A program made the position numbers and the translations under genes. Positions 17,531 to 63,596 of a DNA stretch of 64,000 bases are shown here, piece by piece; position 1 is the stretch's first letter, and each line of letters begins with the position of its first letter. The stretch comes from a phage, in the NCBI GenBank assembly GCA_009015555.1, contig GCA_009015555.1_3613.1; one strand, given 5' to 3'. The notes under the pieces were generated by a model. The model saw nothing but the letters and a program-made list of their open reading frames with translations, did no database searches and had not been told where the DNA came from.

Positions 17531-18124
17531 TTAGTCAAAAGTCGTTTCACATTTATGCTGGAAACGTTCCAGTGCGATCGAGGTCCTTGGCTCCGCCAAT
17601 CCGGTCCCGTAAACATACGATTTTCCGGTCATGGTTTTACGCACACCGTATGATCCGAGTTCCAGATCTTCGTACATGACGTCGAACCCGTCCTCTGTCT
17701 CGATCACCTCTGTAGGCAGTGCATAAAACTCCCTCAGAAACTTCTGCATCTTCCCGGCGATCCACAGTGCATCCGTCCGGGTGTAGAAGTTGCTGTCATC
17801 ACTCAGCTTCATGAGTTCCAGTTTCAGGAACACAGGTAAGTGAGTTTCGTCAAGGATCGGCTCGTCACGGTAGCAAGGGGTCAACGCCATCCAACGCCCT
17901 GGTTTAAGTTTGCCCTCTTTCTCCAACTGGAGAAAAGATTGCTCCGCCGAGGCAACAACAGTATCCGGATATTTACCGTACAGGCGGGAATCATGTACGC
18001 CCGCCGGGCAGGTGTGAGACATAACATCCGGGTCTACAAGGGCCGGGACCTTTTTGGTCTCAAACCAAAGCCCCCACCAGTTAATCGCGTCACGTACCAG
18101 TGCCAAGTTCATAGGATATTTCAT
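17531..18124 (-). CDS. hypothetical protein with class-II aminoacyl-tRNA-synthetase-like motifs (tentative)
   Basis: Track ORF; motif-2-like CYRDE..HLPVF and motif-3-like GTGLAEPR; function unverified. Confidence 0.5.
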   Translation of the reverse strand: MKYPMNLALVRDAINWWGLWFETKKVPALVDPDVMSHTCPAGVHDSRLYGKYPDTVVASAEQSFLQLEKEGKLKPGRWMALTPCYRDEPILDETHLPVFLKLELMKLSDDSNFYTRTDALWIAGKMQKFLREFYALPTEVIETEDGFDVMYEDLELGSYGVRKTMTGKSYVYGTGLAEPRTSIALERFQHKCETTFD

Positions 18125-21651: not shown

Positions 21652-21974
21652 TCTTTACCTCCGAAAATTTTACGGGCCAATTCCTCATCGCCGATCGTGT
21701 GGTTCCAAATCCACCGGATTATTTCAATTGCCCACGCGATAGCGTAACAGCCGATCAGGATAAACCATGCAATGGGCCAAACCACTGCGATCAAGACCCA
21801 CCCTAGCATTAGCATGGACCAATCCACGGTTTTACCCTTGTCCAAAGGGCAAAGATACCACCCATCGATGGCGTCCGGCATCTTTATCCCCCGGCCAGTC
21901 TGCCGCCACTTGATAATCCCGAACCACACTGCCGCACTAATACAGACGCCAAGTAGGTAAATTGGAATCGTCAT
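21648..21974 (-). CDS. membrane protein (108 aa)
   Basis: Track ORF; hydrophobic. Confidence 0.5.
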   Translation of the reverse strand: MTIPIYLLGVCISAAVWFGIIKWRQTGRGIKMPDAIDGWYLCPLDKGKTVDWSMLMLGWVLIAVVWPIAWFILIGCYAIAWAIEIIRWIWNHTIGDEELARKIFGGKE

Positions 21975-23253
21975 ACCCTTCCTCCTCTCTTAATTTTTTG
22001 ATTTCTGCCTTTACTCGTGATAGAGCGCGGGCAACGTATTTAACTTTCATCGCTCGGATCTCAGAAGAGATTAATTCACGACGACCTGCCAATCTCGCGG
22101 AGATCTCTTTACTCTTCTCGGAGATTTCCAGTCGATTCTTATGCAACTCGACAGCACAGGCCCATAGTACATGAGGCTGGTCGTAGATGTCAAACATTTT
22201 CTCCGGCCCACGACCCCGTGCGTCGCACATACAAGCCTCAATGAACTTCAGTGCGAACTGATTTTCCTGCGGTTTGTGCGCCTTGATGCGTTCAATCAGG
22301 TCGAATACCTTGCGAGGCTTCAGATCCATGATCCGGTGCAGTCGTGTGTGGTCGGCGCAAACGCGATGGGCGAGGTCTGCCCATTTGTTTGGTACGCCGA
22401 ATCGCTCGCTCAGTTGTGCAACCAACCCAAGACCGAAGTATTCGTGCCCGTGCAGGTTCCCGTACTCAAAATACTGGACCTTCCCCAAGTCGTGACACAG
22501 GACTGCCCATTTCACCTCCGGTGATGACATGATGCGCTGGGCATAGTCCAAACACAGCAGCGTGTGAACGTATGCGTCACCCTCGGGGTGGTGGGCTTTC
22601 GGCTGCAATGCACCTCGCAGGTTTGCCACCTCCGGCATTTCCCCAAGATTGCAGAGCATGTCGATCATCAACGAGGGTCGGTTGTCATTACTCTGGTCCT
22701 CGAAGCATTTGCGGATCTCAGCCATCTTGCGCTCTTTCGGGAGCGCAGCCAGTGTCGCTTTTGCACTCTCGCAAACGAACATCGTTGAGTGGTCCACCAC
22801 GAACTTGCCGCCAAAGCGGGCCAAGAATCGAGCCAGGCGGTAGATACGGAGCGGGTCTTCACGCATAGCTGCCGCTGATACGTTCCTCAGAACACCTTTT
22901 TGGATGTCACGGATGCCGCCATATGGGTCGATGTATTCCCCGGTCTCCAGATCCTTTGCGATCGCATTAATGGTCAAGTCCCGGCGGGCCAAGTCCTCTT
23001 CGATGGTCACATCTGGGCTGAACATCACCTCGAAATCGTGGTATCCTGCGCCAGTTGAACGCTCGGTACGGGCCAGGGCGTACTCTTCCTTGGTCTCAGG
23101 ATGCAGGTAAACTGGGAATGCGGCACCAACTTGCTCGAAGCCGAGTGCCATCATCTCTTCGTGGGTGGAGCCGACCACAACGTAGTCACGGTCTTTGCTC
23201 TCAACACCCATCAGTTCATCGCGGACCGCGCCGCCTACCAGATAGATTTTCAT
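21937..23253 (-). CDS. cca: tRNA nucleotidyltransferase (CCA-adding enzyme) with HD domain
   Basis: MKIYLVGGAVRD..DRDYVVVG head motif, RDLTINA, HD-domain HHPEGDAYVHTL. Confidence 0.9.
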   Translation of the reverse strand: MKIYLVGGAVRDELMGVESKDRDYVVVGSTHEEMMALGFEQVGAAFPVYLHPETKEEYALARTERSTGAGYHDFEVMFSPDVTIEEDLARRDLTINAIAKDLETGEYIDPYGGIRDIQKGVLRNVSAAAMREDPLRIYRLARFLARFGGKFVVDHSTMFVCESAKATLAALPKERKMAEIRKCFEDQSNDNRPSLMIDMLCNLGEMPEVANLRGALQPKAHHPEGDAYVHTLLCLDYAQRIMSSPEVKWAVLCHDLGKVQYFEYGNLHGHEYFGLGLVAQLSERFGVPNKWADLAHRVCADHTRLHRIMDLKPRKVFDLIERIKAHKPQENQFALKFIEACMCDARGRGPEKMFDIYDQPHVLWACAVELHKNRLEISEKSKEISARLAGRRELISSEIRAMKVKYVARALSRVKAEIKKLREEEGYDDSNLPTWRLY

Positions 23254-23847: not shown

Positions 23848-23882
23848 ATGCAATAAAAAAGGCCACCCGAAGGTGACCTTTT
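23848..23882 (-). terminator. rho-independent terminator
   Basis: Minus strand hairpin GGTCACC-TTCG-GGTGGCC followed by TTTTTT. Confidence 0.5.
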
Positions 23883-23884
23883 TG

Positions 23885-24397
23885 TTATTTGGGAGAGACC
23901 CAGTAGAAAGGCTTCTCCAGATTCAGCTTTTTCAGTGGGTCCCAGATGAAATATGCGTACCCGGCACCGTCTGTTTTACCATCCTCGGTGAAGGATGGTC
24001 GCTTCGACAACGTGATCAGGTGGTCAAGGGGGTACTGTTTCCAGAACTCCTCTCGACGCATACTCTCCAAGAACCCCAGGCGCAGCAGCATGATTACGAC
24101 ATCTGCATCTTTATGGGCCTTCTCCACAAACTCTTGGGCCAAGGAGTAGGGCGGATTGGTGATAATGCAATCCACACGATCGTAAGAAGTATTAAGGTAA
24201 TCAACACCGTCCCTGATCTCTCCCCACGCTGACCCGATCGGCAGTTCGTTGTAAAAGCGCCCGGAGGCGCGACAAGGTTCCATGTAAGTCCAGCCCTTGC
24301 GGATTGGAATCAGGTCGAACAGACATTTTACTGCCCACTCAGGAGTTTCGTATACATCGAATGCCTTACGTTCGCCCTTCGGCTTCAGTGCCGCCAT
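23885..24397 (-). CDS. small DNA N6-adenine methyltransferase-like protein (NPPY motif)
   Basis: Track ORF; motif IV IITNPPY, motif-I-like EPCRASGRF. Confidence 0.55.
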   Translation of the reverse strand: MAALKPKGERKAFDVYETPEWAVKCLFDLIPIRKGWTYMEPCRASGRFYNELPIGSAWGEIRDGVDYLNTSYDRVDCIITNPPYSLAQEFVEKAHKDADVVIMLLRLGFLESMRREEFWKQYPLDHLITLSKRPSFTEDGKTDGAGYAYFIWDPLKKLNLEKPFYWVSPK

Positions 24398-25320
24398 TAA
24401 TCTTCCTCTCCAACATAGAACTGACTTCCCGCCAGGATTTCTTCAATCAAGCACTCCAGTGCCTGCTGACGAGTATTCTGCGAGGGATCGAGATCAAGGC
24501 CAAAGGCAATGCCGATCTCCTCGATCTCGTCCATGTTGTACTCATCGAAATCCTTCGGGCACAGGGTACTCAGACGAAACACCTTTTTGTAGCCGTCATC
24601 CAAGGTGATGTCGAACTCATCTCCCTGTGGGAAGTCTTCCGCCGACAGAACTTTAGTCTCCGGGAACGGAAGGGAAATTACCTCTCCGATCGGCAATAAA
24701 ATACCTTCGTCCTGTGAAGCAGGTTCCGGCAGTTTACCCGAGCCAAATCGGGAAAGAATCTGCTCACGACGTTCACTGTTCTGCAAACGCTCACGCATCT
24801 CTTCCGCCGTCAGGTATATTTCCCCGGCACGTTCGAACAACTCAGCCAGTTCAAGAGGCGTCAGGACCTCAGCCATCATCCCGTAGAACTTCTCTTTGAA
24901 GAGACGTTCATAAAATTTGCTGCGGGCGATCACGTGGGCACTATCACCTCCAGATCCCAACTGAACGTTGTGGAACATGAAATAGCAGCCGTCTTCACAA
25001 ATACGCTCATCCCCGGACAGGAAGATCGTGGTTGCTGCACTGGCACACTCACCAATGGCCCGGGTAATGATCTTCGCCTTGCTGTCACGGAAAGCAGCGA
25101 GGTACATGTCGGCAATGTCTACTCGCCCGCCCGGTGATGTGATCAGGATTTCAATAACATCATCTTCCTCTGCGGTCCGAATCATGTCCAAACCCTCGAA
25201 GTGGTTTCGTGGATCATTGTCCAGTTCGGTCACATAGAGACGCCAGTCACGGCGCTCTTGAGGGGTACACCAAAGGTTACCACGGTAAGTTTGATCAACG
25301 GTATCGAATTGCTCTTCCAT
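24397..25320 (-). CDS. ClpP-family serine peptidase-like protein with C-terminal extension
   Basis: ITSPGGRVDIADMY...ECASAATTIFLSGD...FMFHNVQLGSGG matches ClpP Ser/His region. Confidence 0.6.
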   Translation of the reverse strand: MEEQFDTVDQTYRGNLWCTPQERRDWRLYVTELDNDPRNHFEGLDMIRTAEEDDVIEILITSPGGRVDIADMYLAAFRDSKAKIITRAIGECASAATTIFLSGDERICEDGCYFMFHNVQLGSGGDSAHVIARSKFYERLFKEKFYGMMAEVLTPLELAELFERAGEIYLTAEEMRERLQNSERREQILSRFGSGKLPEPASQDEGILLPIGEVISLPFPETKVLSAEDFPQGDEFDITLDDGYKKVFRLSTLCPKDFDEYNMDEIEEIGIAFGLDLDPSQNTRQQALECLIEEILAGSQFYVGEED

Positions 25321-25796
25321 CAGGCCCCCTTGCTCAGTTCAGTACGGACACGAATGTGGTTTTGCAGAATCCACTCAATAACCTGAGACCGATCCGAATC
25401 CACAATTACTTCATGATGGCGCTTGAACATGTCGAGGATCTTTTGAGCCTCGACCGCATACCGCGCTGCCCGGTCGATAAACAGCAGACGCTCTTTTGCA
25501 TCACCTGTCACCGGACACAGTTCACTTGGCACCTCGATATCTGCCAAATGGTCAACCAGTTCTTGACGCTTTGAGAACATGAGGTGGACCTCTTGCTCAA
25601 CTGGCATCGACAGGTCGAATAATTTGGCCCAAAAGCCGGGCTTAACCCGTAGCTTACGGACGTTGATGATTTCCTCTTTCATGTCCAAGAAAAGGAGTTC
25701 CGCCAGATCTTCCAGGCGAGCGGCATCGACAGCACCACAGTTTTTAAGTTCCATCAGTTTGCGATGTTCAACTGTGGCAAAAATACCCTTATCCAT
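25320..25796 (-). CDS. hypothetical protein (start at ATG with RBS GGGAGAG)
   Basis: Track ORF 25320..25946. Confidence 0.5.
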   Translation of the reverse strand: MDKGIFATVEHRKLMELKNCGAVDAARLEDLAELLFLDMKEEIINVRKLRVKPGFWAKLFDLSMPVEQEVHLMFSKRQELVDHLADIEVPSELCPVTGDAKERLLFIDRAARYAVEAQKILDMFKRHHEVIVDSDRSQVIEWILQNHIRVRTELSKGA

Positions 25797-51269: not shown

Positions 51270-52160
51270 ATGATTCGTGCATATTTAGGCGGAAGTCAGT
51301 TGGACATCGAGTTCAGCACATTTGCCGGGGGCGAGAGAAACGTCCTCATCAAGGGTTTCCAATGGCCCAGTCCGTTCAATGCGGATCTGAAAGAGAAGAT
51401 GCCAGAAGGTAAAGACCTTGTTGTCTACGCCCATGTTGACAGTTCAGATGCCATCATGGACCTGCTGCTGTTTACCGACGCATTCAACCGCATGGGTCGA
51501 GGCACAGGCAACCAGGTGAAGAAGGTCTGTTATGTGCCATACATCCCGTATGCCCGTCAAGACCGAGTGATGGTTCCTGGAGAACCGCTGTCGTCGGCAG
51601 TGTTTGGAACACTTATCAACCTGTGTGGATTTGACCGTATCATTGTTGATGACCCGCACTCAGATGTGTCTCCGTCACACATCAAGAACGTTGCCATTTT
51701 CGAACAATATGAACTGGCCTTGGATATTCTTGGCCCGGGCTTCTTCGACGATGCCGTTATCGTAGCTCCGGACGCCGGGGCAATCAAGAAGGTCACGAAG
51801 TTGGCTCAGAAGGTCAACCACCGTGAAATCGGGGTTGGGACCAAGCATCGTGACCTTATGACCAATAACATCACTGACACGACTTATGCCGGGCCGGATG
51901 TTAATGGTAAGCGTGTCATCATGGTTGATGACATTTGCGACGGAGGTCGTACATTTATCGAGCTTGGTAAGGTTCTCCGTGCCAATGGTGCGAAAGAGGT
52001 TGTTCTGTACACCACGCACGGGATTTATTCCTACGGCGCGGATGTGTTTAAGGACGTTATTGATGAGGTTTACTCCGCCTATCCGTGGATGAAGAACCTG
52101 GAAGGCCGAAACGAAAATAATATTTTCAAATCTGTTGACAAGATGGTTGAGTTCAAGTAA
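51270..52160 (+). CDS. ribose-phosphate pyrophosphokinase (Prs)-like enzyme; candidate ADPR-pyrophosphate synthetase of a NAD+ reconstitution pathway
   Basis: PRTase type I motifs YARQDR, DPHS, VIMVDDICDGGRT; RBS GAGAGGAGAG. Confidence 0.85.
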   Translation: MIRAYLGGSQLDIEFSTFAGGERNVLIKGFQWPSPFNADLKEKMPEGKDLVVYAHVDSSDAIMDLLLFTDAFNRMGRGTGNQVKKVCYVPYIPYARQDRVMVPGEPLSSAVFGTLINLCGFDRIIVDDPHSDVSPSHIKNVAIFEQYELALDILGPGFFDDAVIVAPDAGAIKKVTKLAQKVNHREIGVGTKHRDLMTNNITDTTYAGPDVNGKRVIMVDDICDGGRTFIELGKVLRANGAKEVVLYTTHGIYSYGADVFKDVIDEVYSAYPWMKNLEGRNENNIFKSVDKMVEFK

Positions 52161-52211
52161 TATTCACAACGTTCCGGGGCACATTGCCCCAATTTAACTG
52201 AGGAGATTTAT

Positions 52212-54002
52212 ATGTTACATAACGACCTGCCTATCCTGTTTGCTGACTGGTACAAACCGAGCCATATTTCCATGTACAGCAAACAGTCTGAGATCGTACA
52301 AGACAACATGACCCCACGCTCAAGCAAACACTTTCAGCACTTTTCTGACAGTGACCAGCGCGTCATGTCTGCTGGCCTGCAAGGCTTTATTAAGTGGTTC
52401 CTGATTGAACACTTCAACCGTGAGTTCTTCGGTCGTCCGAAGGAAGAAGTTATCGGGGAGTTCAAAGAGATCTGTGACCTGGCGATCGGCCCAGACATGG
52501 TTGAAACGTGGGGCTTCGAAAAGCTGCATGACCTGGGCTATCTGCCTGTTGAAATCCGCGCCCTGCCGGAAGGTACTCTTTCTCCGGTACAAGTGCCTCT
52601 GTTCACAATTCAGAACACGCACCCGGACTTCTACTGGCTTCCTAACTACCTGGAGTCAGTGATCTCCTCTGAAAACTGGAAAACCGTAACTACGGCAACC
52701 ATTTTCTGGCAGTATCGTAAGCTGGCTGAACTGTGGGCGCAGAAAACCTGCGACAACAACCTGCACGTCCCGTTCCAGATTCATTGCTTCGCTTATCGCG
52801 GCCAGGCTGGCACTCACGATGCGGCCCAGTCTGAACTGGGACAACTGATGAACTCTCAGGGCACCGACACCATCCCGGCGATCCTGTATGCAAACCGTTA
52901 TTACGGTATGAAAGGCAAGTTCGTATCCGGCTCCATCCCGGCATCCGAGCACAGCGTTGCAACAACGAACATCGGGTTCATCATCGGACGCCTCCGTTCT
53001 GAGCATCCGGAAATGTCGCTGGATGACCTGCGTTTCCACGCAGAAGTCGAGTTCCTGCGCCGATACATCACTGAAATCTTCCCGAAAGGTTTCGTGTCTT
53101 ATGTCGGCGACAGTTATGACTGGTTCCGCCTGATCACTCAGGGTGTTCGTATCCTGAAAGACGAAATCATGGCCCGTGATGGTCGTGTGGTATTCCGCCC
53201 GGATTCCGGCGTACCGGAAGACATCATCTGCGGCACACTGGACTGGCGTAAGATTGAAGACCTCGACACGGCAGGTACTCTGGAACGCGCTGCCAATTGG
53301 GCACTGGAAAGTGCCGAAGATGAAGTTCGTGAGAACACCCCGCACGGTGAATGCGGTGATGAATCCGTTGAACGTTACTTCCTGTTCGATGGCGATCTGT
53401 ACCTGATGAAGGGTGAGATTGACTGGAACCGTCACGACAAAACGTATTACTACATCGACGGTCGCCGTGTTCTGTCTTACGAAAAGGCAGAACTCACTGA
53501 TGAGCAGAAAGGTTCTGTTGAACTGCTGTACGATGTGTTCGGTGGCGACCTGAACTCCAAAGGCTATCGTACTCTGGACACCCACGTCGGCCTGATTTAC
53601 GGTGACTCCATCACCGTTGCTCGCGCCAAAGAGATCTTCGAGCGCCTGGAAGCAAAAGGCTTTGCATCGAACAACGTTGTGTTCGGTGTCGGTTCCTTCA
53701 CCACCCAGTTCAACACTCGTGATTCTCTGGGTCAGGCAGTCAAGGCGACAGGCGCGGTTATTGACGGTCAGCAGATCATGGTCGTCAAAGAGCCTAAGAC
53801 CGACCTCGGCAAGAAGTCTGCTCAGGGCTTCCTGAAGGTTGTTCGTGGTGAAGACGGTGAACTGAAGCTGGTTGATAACCTCCAACTGGAGCAAGTCAAC
53901 GATACCGACAATGAACTGCGTGTGGTTTTCCGTGACGGCGTTCTGCTGGTTGACGAAACGCTGACTGAAATCCGTGAGCGTGTCACAGCAAACCTGAAAT
54001 AA
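52212..54002 (+). CDS. nadV: nicotinamide phosphoribosyltransferase (NAMPT/NadV)-like enzyme with ~100-aa insertion
   Basis: DWYKPSHI, PEG..VPLFTIQNT.PDFYWL, FAYRG, GTDT, SIPASEHS, YVGDSYD, FRPDSG, VFGVGSF collinear with NAMPT. Confidence 0.9.
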   Translation: MLHNDLPILFADWYKPSHISMYSKQSEIVQDNMTPRSSKHFQHFSDSDQRVMSAGLQGFIKWFLIEHFNREFFGRPKEEVIGEFKEICDLAIGPDMVETWGFEKLHDLGYLPVEIRALPEGTLSPVQVPLFTIQNTHPDFYWLPNYLESVISSENWKTVTTATIFWQYRKLAELWAQKTCDNNLHVPFQIHCFAYRGQAGTHDAAQSELGQLMNSQGTDTIPAILYANRYYGMKGKFVSGSIPASEHSVATTNIGFIIGRLRSEHPEMSLDDLRFHAEVEFLRRYITEIFPKGFVSYVGDSYDWFRLITQGVRILKDEIMARDGRVVFRPDSGVPEDIICGTLDWRKIEDLDTAGTLERAANWALESAEDEVRENTPHGECGDESVERYFLFDGDLYLMKGEIDWNRHDKTYYYIDGRRVLSYEKAELTDEQKGSVELLYDVFGGDLNSKGYRTLDTHVGLIYGDSITVARAKEIFERLEAKGFASNNVVFGVGSFTTQFNTRDSLGQAVKATGAVIDGQQIMVVKEPKTDLGKKSAQGFLKVVRGEDGELKLVDNLQLEQVNDTDNELRVVFRDGVLLVDETLTEIRERVTANLK

Positions 54003-55477: not shown

Positions 55478-55553
55478 GCTGGATTAGCTCAGTAGGTAGA
55501 GCGCCTCACTTGTAATGAGGATGTCGCGGGTTCGATTCCTGCATCCAGCACCA
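55478..55553 (+). tRNA. tRNA-Thr (anticodon TGT)
   Basis: Cloverleaf by hand: acceptor GCTGGAT/ATCCAGC, loop CTTGTAA, T-loop GGTTCGATTCC, encoded CCA. Confidence 0.8.
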
Positions 55554-55559
55554 GATCAT

Positions 55560-55636
55560 GCAACGTTGCCGGAGTCTGGTAACGGCTCTCGCTGCAAACG
55601 AGATGAGCACTGGTTCGAATCCAGTACGTTGCTCCA
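55560..55636 (+). tRNA. tRNA-Cys (anticodon GCA)
   Basis: Acceptor GCAACGT/ACGTTGC, loop CTGCAAA, T-loop GGTTCGAATCC, CCA. Confidence 0.8.
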
Positions 55637-55637
55637 A

Positions 55638-55714
55638 GCGCCTTTGGTCCAATTGGTAGAGGCACTACATTCAAAATGTAGGGGTTCCCAGTTCGAATCT
55701 GGGAAGGCGCACCA
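55638..55714 (+). tRNA. tRNA with Leu anticodon CAA but short (5-nt) variable arm; identity uncertain
   Basis: Acceptor GCGCCTT/AAGGCGC, anticodon stem CTACA/TGTAG, loop TTCAAAA, T-arm CCCAG-TTCGAAT-CTGGG, A73, CCA. Confidence 0.55.
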
Positions 55715-55730
55715 AAATTTATGTAACCTA

Positions 55731-55759
55731 TTGACATAGTGTAATTATACTGCTAATAT
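55731..55759 (+). promoter_or_regulatory. sigma70-like promoter (TTGACA-17-TAATAT)
   Basis: Consensus -35, good -10, upstream of ORF 55786. Confidence 0.5.
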
Positions 55760-55785
55760 GGATACACTAATTCAATGGGGGCATT

Positions 55786-56160
55786 ATGAGCAAGGCTGCG
55801 ATTGTAACTCGTAAGCGTGGTCGCCCAAGCAAAGAAGAGAGCACAGCAATCGCCCTTGAAAAGGCAATGCTTGATCTCCGAGGCGAATTGGCCCGTCTGA
55901 CGCCGAAGGCCATTCATACTCTCGAAAACCTGCTCACAACAGGCACAGAGAAAGTGAAGGAAACCACGGCGAAGTATATCCTTGAGCAGGCGAAAGAGGT
56001 TAACAACCTCTATACTGAAGAGGATAACGAAGACGACGCAGCAGGCGGCACAACATCTGCCTCTTCTGAAACTCACGCTGGTTCTTCTGACGAGATGAAA
56101 AATGCCATCCCGTTGACAACCCAGATTCGTGAGTATAAAGCAGTAGGCGAAGATGATTAA
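55786..56160 (+). CDS. small basic/acidic protein with AT-hook-like RKRGRPSK motif
   Basis: Track ORF; own promoter and terminator inside tRNA cluster. Confidence 0.55.
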   Translation: MSKAAIVTRKRGRPSKEESTAIALEKAMLDLRGELARLTPKAIHTLENLLTTGTEKVKETTAKYILEQAKEVNNLYTEEDNEDDAAGGTTSASSETHAGSSDEMKNAIPLTTQIREYKAVGEDD

Positions 56161-56163
56161 CTG

Positions 56164-56190
56164 GAAGGCTCCCGAAGGAGCCTTTATTAG
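56164..56190 (+). terminator. rho-independent terminator
   Basis: AGGCTCC-CGAA-GGAGCCT then TTTATT. Confidence 0.5.
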
Positions 56191-56325
56191 AAGTTCTCTT
56201 TTGACGGGCACTTGTTAACGACCCGCAGAATGACGACGGTGTACAACGGCGTTTGATGGCGAGGAAGGTCTATAGGGATCAGCGCAGATCCTTGGATGTC
56301 AGGTGAGCCGTACAAAAGAGAATTT

Positions 56326-56413
56326 GGGGAGTTATTTCCGTAGAGGTAGCGGTGCAGACTGTAAATCTGTTGTCATTGCGACTCGGGTGGTTCGACTCCA
56401 TCACTCCCCACCA
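56326..56413 (+). tRNA. tRNA-Tyr (anticodon GTA), long variable arm
   Basis: Loop CTGTAAA, variable arm GTCATTGCGACTC, T-loop GGTTCGACTCC, CCA. Confidence 0.8.
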
Positions 56414-56419
56414 AATTAT

Positions 56420-56514
56420 AGTAGGATGGCTGAGTGGCTTAAAGCAGCATCTTGGAAAGGTGTCGGATCAGGTAACCCCTGGTCCCGGGAGTTCAAATCT
56501 CCCTCCTACTGCCA
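56420..56514 (+). tRNA. tRNA-Ser (anticodon GGA), type II
   Basis: Acceptor AGTAGGA/TCCTACT, D-loop GAGTGGCTTAA, loop TTGGAAA, long variable arm, CCA. Confidence 0.75.
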
Positions 56515-56518
56515 GACC

Positions 56519-56595
56519 GGATCGTTAGCTCAATTGGTTAGAGCAAGGGACTTTTAATCCCGAGGTTCGGGGTTCGAGTCCCTGACGGTCCACCA
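56519..56595 (+). tRNA. tRNA-Lys (anticodon TTT)
   Basis: Acceptor GGATCGT/ACGGTCC, loop CTTTTAA, T-loop GGTTCGAGTCC, CCA. Confidence 0.8.
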
Positions 56596-56760
56596 GAAAG
56601 GAAGAGGGTCCAAGCTGGTAATGCGAGAGGCGAGTCCTCAGACCAAAGCCCAGATGGAGGCCACCCTAAAGTCGTCCAACCGAAGGTCCCTGATTGAGTA
56701 ATACTTCCCCGCTTGTCGGGTACAGTTCTCAGTCACACCGGAAGGGGCGCACCCTATAAT

Positions 56761-56836
56761 TGACGGTGAGCATATAAGGACATGCGGGGGCCTGTTAAGT
56801 CCAGGATAGCTGGTTCGAATCCAGTACCGTCAGCCA
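56761..56836 (+). tRNA. tRNA-Asn (anticodon GTT)
   Basis: Acceptor TGACGGT/ACCGTCA, loop CTGTTAA, T-loop GGTTCGAATCC, CCA. Confidence 0.75.
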
Positions 56837-56945
56837 ATTTGGTTCCGACAAGGTGACGGCGCACCCCGGAGCGACGCTGAAAGATGCAGGCCGACGAACA
56901 CATACGTGTACTTAATCAATAGTCATTGCGATGGCTATTCGTTAA

Positions 56946-57023
56946 GTCCTGGTAGACAAACTGGATAAAGTCACCACCCTTTCAAGGTGGGGTTTGAGGG
57001 TTCGATCCCCTCTCAGGACGCCA
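56946..57023 (+). tRNA. tRNA-Glu (anticodon TTC)
   Basis: Anticodon stem CCACC/GGTGG, loop CTTTCAA, T-loop GGTTCGATCCC, CCA. Confidence 0.75.
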
Positions 57024-57117
57024 ATCTTTTAGGTCGGTAGATTAATGAGCAAAGGCCGCTCGCTGGATTCCAACCCCAGTTCAAGGCGTTCGATTCGTCA
57101 CCTTCCTGCCAAATTCA

Positions 57118-57193
57118 GGTCCTATGGTATTAGCGGTAAACATACTCGCCTGTCACGCGAGAGTCACGGGTTCGAATCCCGTTAGGACCGCCA
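57118..57193 (+). tRNA. tRNA-Asp (anticodon GTC)
   Basis: Acceptor GGTCCTA/TAGGACC, loop CTGTCAC, T-loop GGTTCGAATCC, CCA. Confidence 0.8.
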
Positions 57194-57200
57194 CTTCAAA

Positions 57201-57275
57201 TGGGGATTAGCTCAGGGGTAGAGCGCACAACTGATAATTGTGAGGTCGGTGGTTCGAAACCACCATCCCCAACCA
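57201..57275 (+). tRNA. tRNA-Ile (anticodon GAT)
   Basis: Acceptor TGGGGAT/ATCCCCA, loop CTGATAA, T-loop GGTTCGAAACC, CCA. Confidence 0.8.
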
Positions 57276-57345
57276 AACAGCCCCTCCCGGGATTGGACCG
57301 GGTTAACGGCAATCGCACACTGAGGCGTCTTCCGGGGGAACAATA

Positions 57346-57422
<77 letters not shown>

Positions 57423-57428
57423 AATTAT

Positions 57429-57503
57429 TGCGAGGTAGTTCAGCGGTAGAACAGGGGTTTCATACGCCTCATGTCGGCAGTTCGATTCTGCCCTTCGCAA
57501 CCA
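57429..57503 (+). tRNA. tRNA-Met (anticodon CAT; initiator/elongator/Ile-lysidine not resolved)
   Basis: Acceptor TGCGAGG/CTTCGCA, loop TTCATAC, T-loop AGTTCGATTCT, CCA. Confidence 0.7.
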
Positions 57504-57509
57504 AATCAT

Positions 57510-57587
57510 GCTCCAGTAGCCCAATTGGTAGAGGCACTTGATTTAGGATCATGTCAGCGATGAGTTCGAATCTCTCCTGGAGTACCA
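57510..57587 (+). tRNA. tRNA-like gene with Leu anticodon TAG, short variable arm and weak T-stem; identity uncertain
   Basis: Acceptor GCTCCAG/CTGGAGT, D-arm CCAATTGGTAGAGG shared with 55638 tRNA, loop TTTAGGA, A73, CCA. Confidence 0.45.
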
Positions 57588-57593
57588 CATAAA

Positions 57594-57667
57594 GCGGGCA
57601 TGGTATAGTGGTTGTGCCTTAGCCTTCCAAGCTAATGAGTCCGGTTCGATCCCGGATGTCCGCTCCA
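57594..57667 (+). tRNA. tRNA-Gly (anticodon TCC)
   Basis: Acceptor GCGGGCA/TGTCCGC, stem TTAGC/GCTAA, loop CTTCCAA, T-loop GGTTCGATCCC, CCA. Confidence 0.8.
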
Positions 57668-57740
57668 ATTCACGGTGAGTCACTGCCGTTAAGTGTGAAG
57701 TTAAAAATGCCCGTGGTGATCGGGTTATCTCACCCAGTGT

Positions 57741-57816
57741 AGGGGATTAGTTTAATTGGTAAAACATCGGGTTTTGATCCCGACATCGCGAGGTTCGAAT
57801 CCTCCATCCCCCGCCA
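57741..57816 (+). tRNA. tRNA-Gln (anticodon TTG)
   Basis: Stem TCGGG/CCCGA, loop TTTTGAT, T-loop GGTTCGAATCC, CCA; 1-72 is A-C mismatch. Confidence 0.7.
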
Positions 57817-57898
57817 CATTAATGCTCATTAGCTCTTGTCAGTGGAACTCGAACCCTTAGAGCAGGCGACACAGACGTGTGTTTTAGTGAGCATCAAT

Positions 57899-57974
57899 GT
57901 GGCCTTAATTCAGCAGGTAGAATCCCCGGTTGTGAACCGGGCAGTCGTGGGTTCAAGTCCCACAGGTCACCCCA
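57899..57974 (+). tRNA. tRNA-His (anticodon GTG)
   Basis: Acceptor GTGGCCT/AGGTCAC, stem CCCGG/CCGGG, loop TTGTGAA, C73, CCA. Confidence 0.8.
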
Positions 57975-57978
57975 ATCT

Positions 57979-58071
57979 GGAAGATAGGGCGTAGTGGTAC
58001 GCACCCGGATTTGAACCCCGGCCCGCTGTGGCGACCCCACGGTGATAGTTCGACTCTATTATCTTCCGCCA
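57979..58071 (+). tRNA. tRNA-Ser (anticodon TGA), type II
   Basis: Collinear with bacterial tRNA-Ser(UGA): acceptor GGAAGAT, loop TTTGAAC, long variable arm, ...TTCC-G-CCA end. Confidence 0.7.
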
Positions 58072-58092
58072 CCCCTGATCATAAGGCAAACT

Positions 58093-58785
58093 ATGTTAGA
58101 AATGTTAACAGTGGGTAAATACACCCCTAGTCCTATAATTTCTAGCCCTATGGATGCTTATTTTGAGGGCGAGAGGAATAATAAATACGGCACTGTTGAG
58201 TGGGTTGTTCCTCAAGGCGTCACCTCAATCTGCTGTGTAGTGATAGGCGCAGGATCTTCTGGCAGAAGCGGCGGTCTTTCTTGGAGAAACAACATTCCAG
58301 TTACACCTGGTGAAAAACTTAAAATGCAGGTTAACTCCACAGCCAGCGCCCTCTTGAGAGAGACAACTATCCTTTGTGCTGCCCAGTGTGGCGGCAACGG
58401 AGGAAAAACATATAACTCTGTGAACGACGGTGGAGGCAATGCTGGACAATCACCACATGGTAGAGGTGGTGCTGGCGGCTACACCGGGAATGGTGGTGAT
58501 GGGCATACGTTCACAGGTGGTCCAGGACCAGGGTCCCCAGGTTCAGGTGGCGGCGGCGGCGGAGGCGCAGTTGTGTATCTGAACGGATCATTGACACCAA
58601 CTGTCTGCGGCGGAGTCGGCATGTATGGACAGGGGTCGAATGGTGGCGCTGATAACAGCGCCGGATATCCAGGCTCCGGCGGTTCTGGAACAAGATACGG
58701 AAGAGCAGTCGATGGTTATGGTGTTGTCAGGGTTGTGTGGGGAAATTATTCATTCCCAACAAATGCCCCGAGACCGAAATCCTGA
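58093..58785 (+). CDS. glycine-rich repeat protein (GGxGG tracts, poly-Gly run) embedded in tRNA cluster
   Basis: Track ORF 58042..58785; start at ATG after AAGG just downstream of tRNA-Ser. Confidence 0.5.
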   Translation: MLEMLTVGKYTPSPIISSPMDAYFEGERNNKYGTVEWVVPQGVTSICCVVIGAGSSGRSGGLSWRNNIPVTPGEKLKMQVNSTASALLRETTILCAAQCGGNGGKTYNSVNDGGGNAGQSPHGRGGAGGYTGNGGDGHTFTGGPGPGSPGSGGGGGGGAVVYLNGSLTPTVCGGVGMYGQGSNGGADNSAGYPGSGGSGTRYGRAVDGYGVVRVVWGNYSFPTNAPRPKS

Positions 58786-58856
58786 TAGGGATGGTCCCTA
58801 CGAGGATCGTCTTTTGCTCAGTGGTACTCAGCATTTACTTAGTATTCAAACAATAT

Positions 58857-58943
58857 AGAAGAGTGGCGAAATAGGTAGCCGCACCGGACTGCTAATCCGG
58901 GGTCCTTCGGGGCCTGAGAGTTCAAGTCTCTCCTCTTCTGCCA
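58857..58943 (+). tRNA. tRNA-Ser (anticodon GCT), type II
   Basis: Acceptor AGAAGAG/CTCTTCT, stem CCGGA/TCCGG, loop CTGCTAA, long variable arm, CCA. Confidence 0.75.
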
Positions 58944-58948
58944 AGCAT

Positions 58949-59024
58949 GGAACTGTAGCTCAGTTGGTAGAGCGGTTGCCTGAAGAGCAGCGCGTCAGCG
59001 GTTCAAATCCGTTCAGTTCCACCA
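58949..59024 (+). tRNA. tRNA-Phe (anticodon GAA)
   Basis: Acceptor GGAACTG/CAGTTCC, D-arm TAGCTCAGTTGGTAGAGC, loop CTGAAGA, T-loop GGTTCAAATCC, CCA. Confidence 0.8.
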
Positions 59025-62951: not shown

Positions 62952-63020
62952 TCCGGTCGTGAAAACAACCTGTTGCAAAACAGTCAGTTCAGTGCTAAAA
63001 TAATTATCACGGGAGCAATG

Positions 63021-63596
63021 ATGGAAAACATTACCCTTTCCGACCTTCCTTCACAAACTAATCTGACTCGAATCCAAAAGAGTCGGTTTGTGAAAAAGGC
63101 CAACGACCTGTTGAAGCAGGGCTTTAATAAAGCTGCTGCCGTTAACGGGGCCGTTGGCTCCGTCCTCGTCCAGAAAGCCGCTGGTGAAGAAGAGATGATT
63201 TCTTATGAGATCATCTACGAACCTGACACCCCGGACCTTCACGGACAGTGGATGTCGAAAGAGACCTTGGTAAAGGCTCAACAGGATTTCAAAAAGGCTC
63301 AGGAACTCGGTGCTGTCACGGAGAACCTGTATCACCTTTTCGACACCGACTCTTGGAAAATCGTTGACCACTGGATTCAACCAGAGTTCGACGTTAATGT
63401 AGCGCAAACTGGCGAAGTAATCAAGGCCGGATCTTGGGTTGCAAAAGTTCAGTACACCCCTGAGACATGGGAGTTGAAGAAGGCCGGACTTATCGGTGGC
63501 CTGTCACTTCAGTGCGGCGGAATGCTGAACGAAGAGACGAATGAACTTTCCGAACTGGACTTCAGTATTTCACTCGAAGAAGAGGAAGCCAAATGA
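63021..63596 (+). CDS. hypothetical head-morphogenesis-region protein
   Basis: Track ORF 62973..63596; start at ATG spaced 5 nt after GGGAG. Confidence 0.45.
   Translation: MENITLSDLPSQTNLTRIQKSRFVKKANDLLKQGFNKAAAVNGAVGSVLVQKAAGEEEMISYEIIYEPDTPDLHGQWMSKETLVKAQQDFKKAQELGAVTENLYHLFDTDSWKIVDHWIQPEFDVNVAQTGEVIKAGSWVAKVQYTPETWELKKAGLIGGLSLQCGGMLNEETNELSELDFSISLEEEEAK

What the first reader, a model, noticed from the sequence alone, without database searches (positions are those of the whole stretch)
23885..25320. ClpP-family peptidase homolog with long C-terminal extension adjacent to a miniature N6-adenine methyltransferase
ORF 24397-25320 matches the ClpP catalytic region (ITSPGGRVDIADMY, ECASAATTIF, FMFHNV) but has ~100 extra C-terminal residues and lies in the early/metabolic block, far from the capsid genes where prohead proteases normally reside. 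The directly downstream gene (23885-24397) is a 170-aa protein with an NPPY motif typical of N6-adenine methyltransferases. The pair may function in host take-over or anti-restriction rather than in capsid maturation.
Basis: partly seen in the sequence, partly recalled or inferred. Interest (0 to 1): 0.5.

Follow-up and report, generated by a model that had tools for sequence, protein, structure and literature searches.

The report
Phage ClpP-like peptidase and small methyltransferase
Two neighbouring genes of a known Cronobacter phage type encode a ClpP-like peptidase that is not the capsid protease and a very small N6-adenine-type methyltransferase; both are already annotated in public records, neither has been tested, and nothing shows that they work as a pair.

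Summary
The minus-strand ORFs 24397-25320 (307 aa) and 23885-24397 (170 aa) are real, conserved genes. The window is a Certrevirus, 98.6% identical to Cronobacter phage CR8 over the 4-kb stretch compared. There these genes are already annotated as "ATP-dependent protease (ClpP)" and "DNA methyltransferase".

The peptidase has a ClpP fold and an invariant Ser94 and His117. Glu167 sits where ClpP has its catalytic Asp. After the fold come a variable disordered linker and a conserved, very acidic domain of about 65 aa, found only in this family.

It is not the prohead protease. An S78/XkdF-type protease lies next to the portal gene, and virion mass spectrometry of the relative CB7 found that protease but not the ClpP homologue. 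The "ATP-dependent" label is unsupported: the pocket that docks ClpX/ClpA is not conserved, and the phage has no Clp ATPase.

The methyltransferase is a minimal gamma-type amino-methyltransferase core (YxTP, EPCxxxG, NPPY) with no target-recognition domain. Its family occurs in 550 phage records, mostly without a ClpP neighbour and often in replication modules.

The adjacency is inherited gene order, not a dedicated module. Broad anti-restriction by methylation is unlikely: relatives carrying the orthologue are highly restriction-sensitive, and this genome avoids palindromic sites instead. The finding is ordinary and of low to moderate interest.

The parts
24397..25320 (-). Gene for the 307-aa ClpP-like serine peptidase (CR8 gp208 orthologue). 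Catalytic codons: Ser94 = 25039-25041, His117 = 24970-24972, Glu167 (at the Asp position) = 24820-24822.
   Evidence: ORF. Pfam PF00574 E=3.2e-7, above its cut-off. phrog_5410 E=5.7e-141 over the full length. Ser94, His117 and Glu167 are invariant in 31 homologues. Foldseek top hits are bacterial ClpPs.
24745..25320 (-). ClpP-fold catalytic domain, residues 1-192.
   Evidence: AlphaFold2 pLDDT is about 85-96 over residues 25-190. About 160 columns align to solved ClpPs, with target-normalised TM-score 0.6-0.74.
24625..24744 (-). Disordered linker, residues 193-232, hypervariable in length.
   Evidence: pLDDT is below 50 for residues 195-232. The linker is 13-95 residues long in homologues, with unrelated insertions.
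24397..24624 (-). Conserved acidic C-terminal domain, residues 233-307: a beta-hairpin followed by three helices, with no known family.
   Evidence: pLDDT 75-92. Conserved positions include G243, D257 and F258. Net charge is -15 and pI 4.1. No Pfam hit, and the only PHROG hit is phrog_5410. Among 1.84 billion representative proteins it matches only 7, each 241-340 aa, always at the C-terminus.
23885..24397 (-). Gene for the 170-aa minimal gamma-type N6-amino methyltransferase (CR8 gp207 orthologue). Motif X is Y16-x-T18-P19, motif I is E40-P41-C-R-A-S-G46, motif IV is N81-P-P-Y84 (24146-24157). There is no target-recognition domain.
   Evidence: ORF. phrog_799 E=7.1e-66. Invariant residues in 38 homologues. 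Model pLDDT 91.3. Foldseek hits HsdM, CamA, M.BseCI and PacII, and also the rRNA adenine methyltransferases DIMT1 and ErmC'.
23850..23883 (-). Intrinsic terminator directly after the methyltransferase stop codon; it ends the transcription unit.
   Evidence: GGUCACC-UUCG-GGUGGCC followed by UUUUUU. Folding energy -17 kcal/mol, z = -4.86, and none of 200 shuffles folds as well.
25320..25796 (-). Upstream 158-aa gene of unknown function (phrog_7224, CR8 gp209 orthologue). Its TGA stop overlaps the ATG of the peptidase gene.
   Evidence: phrog_7224 E=4e-78. Overlap TGATG. It sits directly upstream of the peptidase gene in L002, L004, L005 and L122. It is annotated as fused to the peptidase in Salmonella phage SSBI34 (P0061).
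62973..63596 (+). Context: the candidate true prohead protease (S78/XkdF type), directly after the portal gene at 61428-62951.
   Evidence: Pfam Peptidase_S78_2 E=6.5e-15. phrog_3017 head maturation protease E=2.8e-18. The CB7 orthologue CB7_5 was detected in virions.

Best explanation
These are two independent accessory genes. They are the last two cistrons of a non-structural operon (PhoH, DprA-like, two small ORFs, peptidase, methyltransferase, terminator) in a Certrevirus.

Peptidase, shown here: a ClpP fold, conserved catalytic residues (Ser94, His117, and Glu167 where ClpP has Asp), and a non-capsid location. Inferred: it assembles into a ClpP-type ring and cleaves peptides or proteins in the infected cell. 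The acidic C-terminal domain hangs on a flexible linker and would act as a docking or substrate-recruiting appendage, possibly together with the co-translated 158-aa upstream protein. It probably does not dock host ClpX/ClpA in the canonical way.

Methyltransferase, shown here: the motifs, the fold and the absence of a target-recognition domain. Inferred: it is an orphan SAM-dependent enzyme that methylates adenine N6 in phage DNA at a limited set of sites. It would give at most narrow protection, or serve replication or packaging. It is not blanket anti-restriction.

The two genes are co-transcribed and translationally coupled because of inherited gene order, not because they form a two-component system.
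For: Identity and existing annotation.

Peptidase:
- Pfam, PHROG and PDB sequence hits.
- Invariant Ser94, His117 and Glu167.
- ClpP fold.
- A separate S78_2 protease next to the portal gene, within a complete head module of portal, protease, a 370-aa protein, decoration protein and major capsid protein.
- Absent from the 26 virion proteins found for CB7.
- Five of the 12 ClpA/ClpX loop-pocket residues are charged and two are deleted.
- tblastn finds no ClpX homologue in the CR8-type genome.
- The C-terminal domain is conserved, acidic and restricted to this family.

Operon: the start and stop codons overlap and a strong terminator follows. The gene order is kept down to 37% peptidase identity.

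Methyltransferase:
- Invariant YxTP, EP and TNPP motifs.
- Confident Rossmann-fold model matching gamma-type DNA adenine methyltransferases.
- Weak Dam, EcoRI-methylase and Eco57I hits in 20-30 of 38 family members.
- Some homologues carry an Arg/Lys-rich C-terminal tail.
- Distant homologues lie among DnaB, primase, PolA and RuvB-like genes.

Independence of the two genes: only 5 of the 80 best methyltransferase loci have a ClpP-like neighbour.

Against blanket methylation: BASEL Vequintavirus phages with the orthologue are exceptionally restriction-sensitive, and this genome shows extreme palindrome avoidance.
Against: There are no biochemical data for either protein. The literature states that the function of the related T5-type "Clp protease" is unknown.

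That distant relative was detected at a low level in BF23 virions, so some virion association cannot be excluded.

Glu in place of Asp, and Gln in the L005 branch, leave catalytic competence unproven.

Oligomeric state and any use of a host unfoldase were not testable. The pocket argument rests on a sequence alignment at 22% identity.

The methyltransferase fold matches rRNA and tRNA adenine methyltransferases about as well as DNA ones. The gene lies near a CCA-adding enzyme gene, so an RNA substrate is not excluded.

The restriction-sensitivity data come from Vequintavirus orthologues, not from this phage.
Confidence: 0.55

Rival explanations
1. The ClpP homologue works as public records label it: as the proteolytic core of an ATP-dependent protease, docking the host unfoldases ClpX or ClpA and so redirecting host proteolysis during infection.
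For: It has the ClpP fold with the handle helix. The N-terminal segment DQTYRGNL aligns with the ClpP axial-loop segment EQTSRGER. Sister lineages carry an HslV-like peptidase in the same slot; HslV also normally needs a host ATPase.
Against: Of the 12 E. coli ClpP residues that form the IGL/IGF-loop pocket, five are charged in the phage family (E22, E57, D79, R87, E109) and two are deleted. It scores 20-27 bits against NCBIfam ClpP cut-offs of 228-251. The phage encodes no Clp ATPase.
Confidence: 0.2
2. The ClpP homologue is associated with the capsid. It would be a second maturation protease, or a packaged protein whose C-terminal domain targets it into the prohead, as scaffold-like extensions do on ClpP-type prohead proteases.
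For: It matches ClpP-type head maturation protease families (phrog_1684 E=1.2e-18; NF045542 E=1.4e-9). The distantly related BF23 "Clp protease" ORF45 was found in purified virions with 3 peptides. A linker followed by a small domain resembles capsid-targeting extensions.
Against: It is not among the 26 virion proteins of CB7, whereas the S78-type protease is. It lies about 36 kb from the head genes, on the other strand, in an operon with PhoH and a DprA-like gene that ends in a terminator. The NF045542 score is 38 bits against a cut-off of 120. The head module already has its own protease.
Confidence: 0.12
3. The 170-aa enzyme methylates RNA (tRNA or rRNA adenine or guanine amino groups) rather than DNA, as part of the phage translation toolkit.
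For: Foldseek hits include DIMT1/KsgA, ErmC', PH1948 and TrmN at E-values similar to the DNA methyltransferases. There is no target-recognition domain for reading DNA sequence. The gene lies three genes from a CCA-adding enzyme gene, and the phage carries 18 tRNA genes.
Against: The best sequence-level hits are all DNA methyltransferase families: Dam PF05869, EcoRI methylase, Eco57I and phrog_799. The YxTP, EPxxGxG and NPPY motif order is that of gamma-type DNA adenine methyltransferases. In other phage lineages homologues sit between DnaB, primase, PolA and RuvB-like genes.
Confidence: 0.15
4. One reading: peptidase and methyltransferase form one functional unit for host take-over or anti-restriction. 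One version has a promiscuous adenine methyltransferase like Hia5.
For: The reading frames overlap and the adjacency is conserved across Vequintavirinae-like phages. Lack of a target-recognition domain could mean relaxed specificity. Non-specific phage adenine methyltransferases do exist (Hia5, Hin1523).
Against: 75 of the 80 best methyltransferase loci have no ClpP-like gene within 4 kb. The peptidase slot can instead hold an HslV-like gene with a further gene inserted before the methyltransferase. Phages with the orthologue are exceptionally sensitive to six restriction systems; that all six are blocked by adenine methylation is textbook knowledge. About 30 palindromic hexamers, including GAATTC, AAGCTT and CTGCAG, are absent from the genome, which blanket methylation would make unnecessary. 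Hia5-type enzymes are 281-aa alpha-class enzymes of a different family.
Confidence: 0.08

Closest known systems
Bacterial ClpP (MEROPS S14, Pfam PF00574), e.g. E. coli ClpP
   Same: Same fold: about 160 aligned columns, target-normalised TM-score 0.6-0.74. Catalytic Ser and His sit in the same motifs: SPGG, GxxxSAA and MxHN/Q.
   Different: Only 18-24% identity. Glu, or Gln in one branch, replaces the triad Asp. The hydrophobic pocket that docks the ATPase is not conserved. There is an extra module of about 120 aa made of a linker and an acidic domain. It falls far below the NCBIfam ClpP cut-offs.
Non-structural "Clp protease" genes of large lytic phages (phrog_1827; T5/BF23 ORF45, ICP1, My1, V22, pf16)
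   Same: They share the diverged ClpP-like core (phrog_1827 E=7.3e-35; BFVD hits; 1393 phage records). They lie outside the head module, often near PhoH. Their function is explicitly unknown.
   Different: Those proteins are about 160-230 aa and lack the acidic C-terminal domain. Only 159 records cover at least 80% of the query. BF23 ORF45 was seen in virions; the CB7 orthologue was not.
ClpP-related phage head maturation proteases (NCBIfam NF045542, phrog_1684 and phrog_94)
   Same: Detectable homology of the catalytic core. Many of them also carry C-terminal extensions.
   Different: Below the family threshold: 38 bits against 120. It is not next to the portal or major capsid protein genes. 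The phage has a separate S78_2 prohead protease.
Small phage N6-adenine methyltransferases (Pfam Dam PF05869) and gamma-type enzymes (type I HsdM, CamA, M.BseCI)
   Same: NPPY/F motif IV, the YxTP and EPxxGxG motif order, and a Rossmann core. One family member (P0185) carries a precomputed PF05869 hit.
   Different: The window protein is below every Pfam cut-off (Dam 14.7 bits against 28.1). HsdM and CamA have large additional domains or specificity subunits, whereas this protein is the bare catalytic core.
Hia5, Hin1523 and Nma1821 non-specific DNA adenine methyltransferases (PMC3299994)
   Same: They are phage-borne orphan adenine methyltransferases used for anti-restriction. They are a possible functional analogue if lack of a target-recognition domain meant relaxed specificity.
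   Different: They are 281-aa Dam-like enzymes with DPPY and a divergent target-recognition region, so a different family. Indirect evidence here argues against promiscuous methylation.

Membership tests
ClpP (S14 / PF00574) | Profile match above the curated threshold | tested here: inconclusive
   Pfam PF00574 scores 30.8 bits against a cut-off of 20.2, but covers only profile positions 39-126 of 182. The NCBIfam ClpP models score 20-27 bits against cut-offs of 228-251.
ClpP (S14 / PF00574) | ClpP/crotonase-like fold with handle helix | tested here: met
   AlphaFold2 model. The top 50 Foldseek PDB hits are all ClpP, with target-normalised TM-score up to 0.74.
ClpP (S14 / PF00574) | Ser-His-Asp catalytic triad | tested here: inconclusive
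   Ser94 and His117 are invariant. The Asp position holds an invariant Glu167 in this clade and Gln in the L005 branch.
ClpP (S14 / PF00574) | Hydrophobic pocket that binds the IGF/IGL loops of ClpX or ClpA | tested here: not met
   The pocket residues L23, L48, F49, A52, Y60, Y62, F82, I90, M92, F112, L114 and L189 align to E, gap, gap, T, E, L, D, R, I, I, E and no equivalent.
ClpP (S14 / PF00574) | Double heptameric ring and ATP-dependent degradation with an AAA+ partner | not testable with these tools
   No ClpX homologue is encoded by the phage. Assembly and activity need experiments.
ClpP-related prohead (head maturation) protease | Profile match above threshold (NF045542) | tested here: not met
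   38.1 bits against a cut-off of 120.
ClpP-related prohead (head maturation) protease | Gene located in the head module, next to portal, scaffold or major capsid protein genes | tested here: not met
   It lies about 36 kb from the portal gene, on the opposite strand, in an operon with PhoH and a DprA-like gene. The slot after the portal gene is occupied by a Peptidase_S78_2 gene.
ClpP-related prohead (head maturation) protease | Presence in procapsids or virions | not testable with these tools
   From the literature only: it is absent from the CB7 virion mass spectrometry list, while a distant BF23 relative is present at a low level.
N6-adenine (amino) DNA methyltransferase, gamma-type | Catalytic motif IV (D/N)PP(Y/F) | tested here: met
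   T80, N81, P82 and P83 are invariant, and residue 84 is Y or F, in 38 homologues.
N6-adenine (amino) DNA methyltransferase, gamma-type | SAM-binding motifs X and I placed before motif IV, in a class I Rossmann fold | tested here: met
   Y16-x-T18-P19 and E40-P41-C-x-x-x-G46 are conserved. The model has pLDDT 91 and matches HsdM, CamA, M.BseCI and PacII.
N6-adenine (amino) DNA methyltransferase, gamma-type | Target-recognition domain or partner specificity subunit | tested here: not met
   The 170 residues form the catalytic core only. No specificity-subunit gene is adjacent.
N6-adenine (amino) DNA methyltransferase, gamma-type | Curated profile membership (Pfam or NCBIfam) | tested here: not met
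   No Pfam hit reaches its cut-off (Dam 14.7 against 28.1; EcoRI_methylase 15.3 against 26.4). There is no NCBIfam hit. Only phrog_799 matches strongly.
N6-adenine (amino) DNA methyltransferase, gamma-type | m6A formed in DNA | not testable with these tools
   The only report is an indirect ClaI digestion pattern for CB7, which host Dam could also explain.

The most novel reading that the evidence does not exclude
The 158-aa protein (phrog_7224) and the ClpP-like peptidase with its tethered acidic domain form a phage-specific proteolytic module that needs no unfoldase. The acidic domain would recruit basic proteins, for example host nucleoid or defence DNA-binding proteins, and the small partner would gate or activate the ring. 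Sister lineages that keep a weakly similar ~160-aa protein but swap the ClpP-like gene for an HslV-like peptidase in the same slot would then show selection for a compartmentalised peptidase activity as such.
Probability: 0.12. Interest if true: 0.6.

Novelty: already known. Interest (0 to 1): 0.22.

Why it matters
As filed, it matters little. Both genes are annotated in CR3, CR8, phiTE, CB7 and many other records, and the analysis confirms those labels with corrections. "ATP-dependent" is unsupported. The protein is not the head protease. The methyltransferase is not a broad anti-restriction device.

Three things remain of some value. First, non-structural ClpP-like genes occur in over a thousand lytic phage genomes (T5-like, ICP1, Vequintavirinae), and the literature says their function is unknown. 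The Vequintavirinae form adds an orphan acidic domain and a coupled small partner gene, which gives a concrete handle for experiments. Second, a 170-aa methyltransferase with no recognition domain is a compact test case for how such enzymes choose targets. Third, the RefSeq label "DNA methyltransferase" on the S78-type prohead protease (CR8 gp003) looks wrong.

Tried and rejected
- Prohead protease role. Rejected on gene position, the presence of an S78_2 protease and published virion proteomics.
- A phage-encoded Clp ATPase. tblastn with E. coli ClpX against the window plus CR8 bases 1-90000 gave nothing below E=0.7. CR8 gp116 "ATPase" shows only generic P-loop motifs by eye; I did not classify it.
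- Origin of the C-terminal domain. There was no Pfam hit, and the only PHROG hit was phrog_5410, its own family. An exhaustive phmmer search found it only on ClpP-like proteins.
- Defence or anti-defence libraries. PADLOC gave only a marginal NPPY hit.
- Literature on phage ClpP. Four searches found no functional study. Only the BF23 paper comments, saying "function currently unknown".
- Homology between phrog_7224 and the 158-aa protein upstream of the HslV-like gene. hhalign gave probability 25% and E=7.7e-4, so the result is inconclusive.
- Hia5-type membership for the methyltransferase. Rejected: it is a different class and size.
- The automatic terminator scan missed the strong hairpin after the methyltransferase gene. 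I found it by reading the sequence and confirmed it by folding.
Full report
**What the window is.** A megablast of window 23000-27000 matches Cronobacter phage CR8 at 98.6% identity and CR3 at 97.4% over the whole stretch. Weaker matches go to other Certrevirus phages: PBES 02, phiTE, CB7 and P7_Pc. In the CR8 RefSeq record the two genes of the finding are gp208, "ATP-dependent protease (ClpP)", and gp207, "DNA methyltransferase". The original GenBank records call them "putative ClpP ATP-dependent protease subunit" and "putative DNA methyltransferase". The finding therefore re-discovers annotated genes.

**Observation check.** Both ORFs are on the minus strand, exactly where stated. They are 24397-25320 (307 aa) and 23885-24397 (170 aa), and all quoted motifs are present. 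The stop of the first and the start of the second overlap as TAATG, with a GGAGAGGA ribosome-binding site upstream. The stop of the upstream gene (25320-25796, phrog_7224) overlaps the peptidase start as TGATG. Directly after the methyltransferase stop lies a strong intrinsic terminator at 23850-23883. Its folding energy is -17 kcal/mol, z = -4.86, and none of 200 shuffles folds as well. The two genes are thus the last cistrons of a co-directional unit: NrdAB, glutaredoxin, endolysin, PhoH, DprA-like, gp210, gp209, peptidase, methyltransferase.

**The peptidase: family and fold.**
- Pfam CLP_protease scores above its cut-off (E=3.2e-7, residues 46-131).
- phrog_5410, "ATP-dependent protease", matches the full length at E=5.7e-141. 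phrog_1827 matches the core at E=7.3e-35. ClpP-type head maturation protease families match more weakly.
- All NCBIfam ClpP and ClpP-related head-protease models are far below their cut-offs.
- In an alignment of 31 homologues sharing 42-89% identity with the window protein, Ser94 (GECAS-AA), His117 (FMFHN) and Glu167 are invariant.
- Glu167 immediately precedes the strand IYLTA, just as Asp171 precedes RFLSA in E. coli ClpP. HMMER aligns it to the catalytic Asp of P. aeruginosa ClpP2. MAFFT places it two residues away.
- A more distant branch (L005, 28% identity) has Gln at this position.
- The AlphaFold2 model has mean pLDDT 78.5. Residues 25-192 form a confident ClpP fold, 195-232 are disordered, and 233-299 form a confident small domain of a beta-hairpin and three helices.
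- The top 50 Foldseek PDB hits are all bacterial, organellar or human ClpPs, with about 160 aligned columns and target-normalised TM-score 0.6-0.74.

**The peptidase: C-terminal extension.** The linker is hypervariable, 13-95 residues long with unrelated insertions. The terminal domain is conserved (G243, D257 and F258 invariant) and strongly acidic. Its net charge is -15 here and -9 to -18 in most homologues, with pI about 4.1. It has no Pfam hit, and its only PHROG hit is phrog_5410, the family of the protein itself. An exhaustive phmmer search of 1.84 billion representative proteins found it in only 7 proteins of 241-340 aa, always at the C-terminus. It is an orphan domain of this family.

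**Not the prohead protease.** Right after the portal gene (61428-62951) lies a 207-aa ORF (62973-63596). It matches Pfam Peptidase_S78_2/XkdF at E=6.5e-15 and phrog_3017, "head maturation protease", at E=2.8e-18. In CR8 the head module reads terminase, portal, this gene, a 370-aa protein, decoration protein, major capsid protein. Published virion mass spectrometry of the Certrevirus CB7 lists 26 proteins. They include CB7_5, "prohead core protein protease" (21 kDa, next to the portal), but not the ClpP homologue (PMC7344957). One caveat remains. [quoted passage not shown]

**Is it "ATP-dependent"?** The ClpA IGL-loop pocket of E. coli ClpP is formed by L23, L48, F49, A52, Y60, Y62, F82, I90, M92, F112, L114 and L189 (bioRxiv 10.1101/820209). 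I aligned the MG1655 ClpP sequence with the phage family. These positions become E22, gap, gap, T49, E57, L59, D79, R87, I89, I107, E109 and no equivalent, and the pattern holds across the family. tblastn with E. coli ClpX finds nothing in the window or in CR8 bases 1-90000, which together cover the genome. The canonical docking mode is therefore unlikely. This rests on an alignment at low identity, and an unconventional interaction with a host unfoldase cannot be excluded.

**The methyltransferase.**
- No Pfam or NCBIfam model reaches its threshold. phrog_799, "DNA methyltransferase", matches at E=7.1e-66.
- Of 38 family members, 30 hit EcoRI_methylase, 20 hit Dam PF05869 (best E=1.6e-5) and 9 hit Eco57I. 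All these hits are weak and centred on NPPY.
- Invariant positions are Y16, T18, P19 (motif X, YxTP), E40, P41 (motif I, EPCxxxG), T80-N81-P82-P83 (motif IV, followed by Y or F), R133-P134-S135-F136, D143 and Y147. This is the gamma-type motif order.
- The model is confident (pLDDT 91.3, pTM 0.86) and is a bare Rossmann core.
- Foldseek finds type I HsdM subunits, CamA, M.BseCI and PacII. At similar E-values it also finds the rRNA and tRNA enzymes DIMT1, ErmC', PH1948 and TrmN. The fold alone does not settle DNA against RNA.
- Three observations favour DNA. All sequence-level hits are DNA methyltransferase families. Many homologues (226-227 aa) carry an Arg/Lys-rich C-terminal tail. In unrelated phage lineages the gene lies among DnaB, primase, PolA, RuvB-like and helicase genes (L007, L123, L124).
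- The family is large: at least 377 IMG/VR loci and 550 phage records, 220 of them Escherichia phages. A size of 155-230 aa is its norm.

**Are the two genes a functional pair?** The order PhoH, DprA-like, ~105 aa, ~160 aa, ClpP-like, methyltransferase (with overlapping frames) is kept in relatives down to 37% peptidase identity (L002-L005, L122). However, among the 80 best IMG/VR loci that carry the methyltransferase, only 5 have a ClpP-like gene within 4 kb. All 5 are the closest relatives. Two further loci, and L006, instead have an HslV/proteasome-like peptidase in the slot between PhoH and the methyltransferase. It begins MTTII..., contains GSGSDYA, matches phrog_1040 at E=2.4e-46 and scores exactly at the Pfam Proteasome cut-off. 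An extra 141-aa gene lies between it and the methyltransferase. The adjacency is therefore lineage-specific gene order.

The more consistent partner of the peptidase is the upstream ~160-aa protein. It is always directly upstream and usually overlaps the peptidase gene. In Salmonella phage SSBI34 it is annotated as fused to the peptidase (P0061). In the HslV-type loci a protein of the same size sits in the same place, with weak collinear similarity: hhalign E=7.7e-4, probability 25%, and a shared DMFK...VD...IE(W/Y) motif. That result is inconclusive.

[quoted passage not shown] The systems tested were EcoKI, EcoCFT_I, EcoRI, EcoRV, EcoCFT_II and EcoP1_I (PMC8594841). That all six are blocked by adenine methylation is textbook knowledge, not a result obtained here. 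BASEL Vequintavirus phages AlexBoehm and CarlMeissner encode a 61.8%-identical orthologue of this methyltransferase.

Independently, this genome avoids restriction sites. In the window alone, 21 of 45 testable palindromic hexamers have observed/expected below 0.15, against 4 of 3564 non-palindromic hexamers. In a pseudo-genome of about 149 kb, about 30 of the 64 palindromic hexamers occur 0-1 times. Examples are GAATTC (0 observed against 15 expected), AAGCTT (0 against 47), CTGCAG (0 against 42), GGATCC (0 against 39) and GGGCCC (0 against 69). GATC is at expectation, 989 against 978. Both lines argue against promiscuous, Hia5-like adenine methylation. Hia5-type enzymes are in any case a different, 281-aa Dam-like family. 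A narrow site specificity, or a role in replication or packaging, remains the most likely function. The only experimental hint is a ClaI digestion pattern for CB7, which host Dam could equally explain.

**Verdict.** Novelty is "already known" at the level of the finding. The residual open points are the orphan acidic domain, the coupled 160-aa partner, the ClpP/HslV swap, and the unknown role of non-structural ClpP-like genes present in 1393 phage records. These give modest interest.

Noticed in passing
whole window (and CR8 loci L125, L126): Palindromic hexamers are avoided to an extreme degree. In the window, 21 of 45 testable palindromic hexamers have observed/expected below 0.15, against 4 of 3564 non-palindromic ones. 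Genome-wide, about 30 of 64 occur 0-1 times, including GAATTC, AAGCTT, CTGCAG, GGATCC, GGGCCC, GGTACC, GTCGAC and CCATGG. GATC is at expectation and CTAG is strongly depleted.
   Followed up: partly
window 62973-63596 (+); CR8 gp003: The gene after the portal gene is a Peptidase_S78_2/XkdF-type prohead protease (Pfam E=6.5e-15). RefSeq nevertheless labels the CR8 orthologue "DNA methyltransferase", apparently taken from the name of phrog_1530. This looks like a misannotation.
   Followed up: partly
L006 2358-4522; L047, L048: In a sister lineage with contigs of about 106-150 kb, the slot between PhoH and the methyltransferase homologue holds an HslV/proteasome-like peptidase instead of the ClpP-like gene. 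It begins MTTII... and matches phrog_1040 at E=2.4e-46. A 158-aa protein weakly similar to phrog_7224 still precedes it.
   Followed up: partly
P0061 (Salmonella phage SSBI34) against window 24397-25796: In SSBI34 the upstream phrog_7224 protein and the ClpP-like protein are annotated as one 448-aa fusion. This could be a real fusion or a missed stop or frameshift; I did not check it.
   Followed up: no
alignment A1 (e.g. P0099, P0120); L005 4001-4684: Many methyltransferase orthologues in 140-150 kb phages are 219-227 aa long, because they carry a C-terminal tail of about 55 aa rich in Arg and Lys that is absent from the window protein. This fits a nucleic-acid-binding appendage.
   Followed up: no
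window 24625-24744 (linker); alignment A2: The linker of the peptidase is a hotspot for insertions and deletions. Several homologues carry a shared cassette of about 30 aa (GICNHDTFGDSPxAxALRxxVNAPT...) that is missing here. Others carry unrelated insertions.
   Followed up: no
window 55478-59024 (+): A cluster of 18 tRNA genes lies just upstream of the terminase gene. The same genome also has a CCA-adding enzyme gene (21937-23253) and a gene that PHROG and RefSeq label "histidyl tRNA synthetase" (17531-18124).
   Followed up: no
CR8 record 51285-53201 (L126): The same phage type also encodes a second "DNA methyltransferase" (gp068; the CB7 paper calls its counterpart a cytosine methylase) and a "Lar-like restriction alleviation protein" (gp065). 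Any anti-restriction function is therefore spread over several genes.
   Followed up: no
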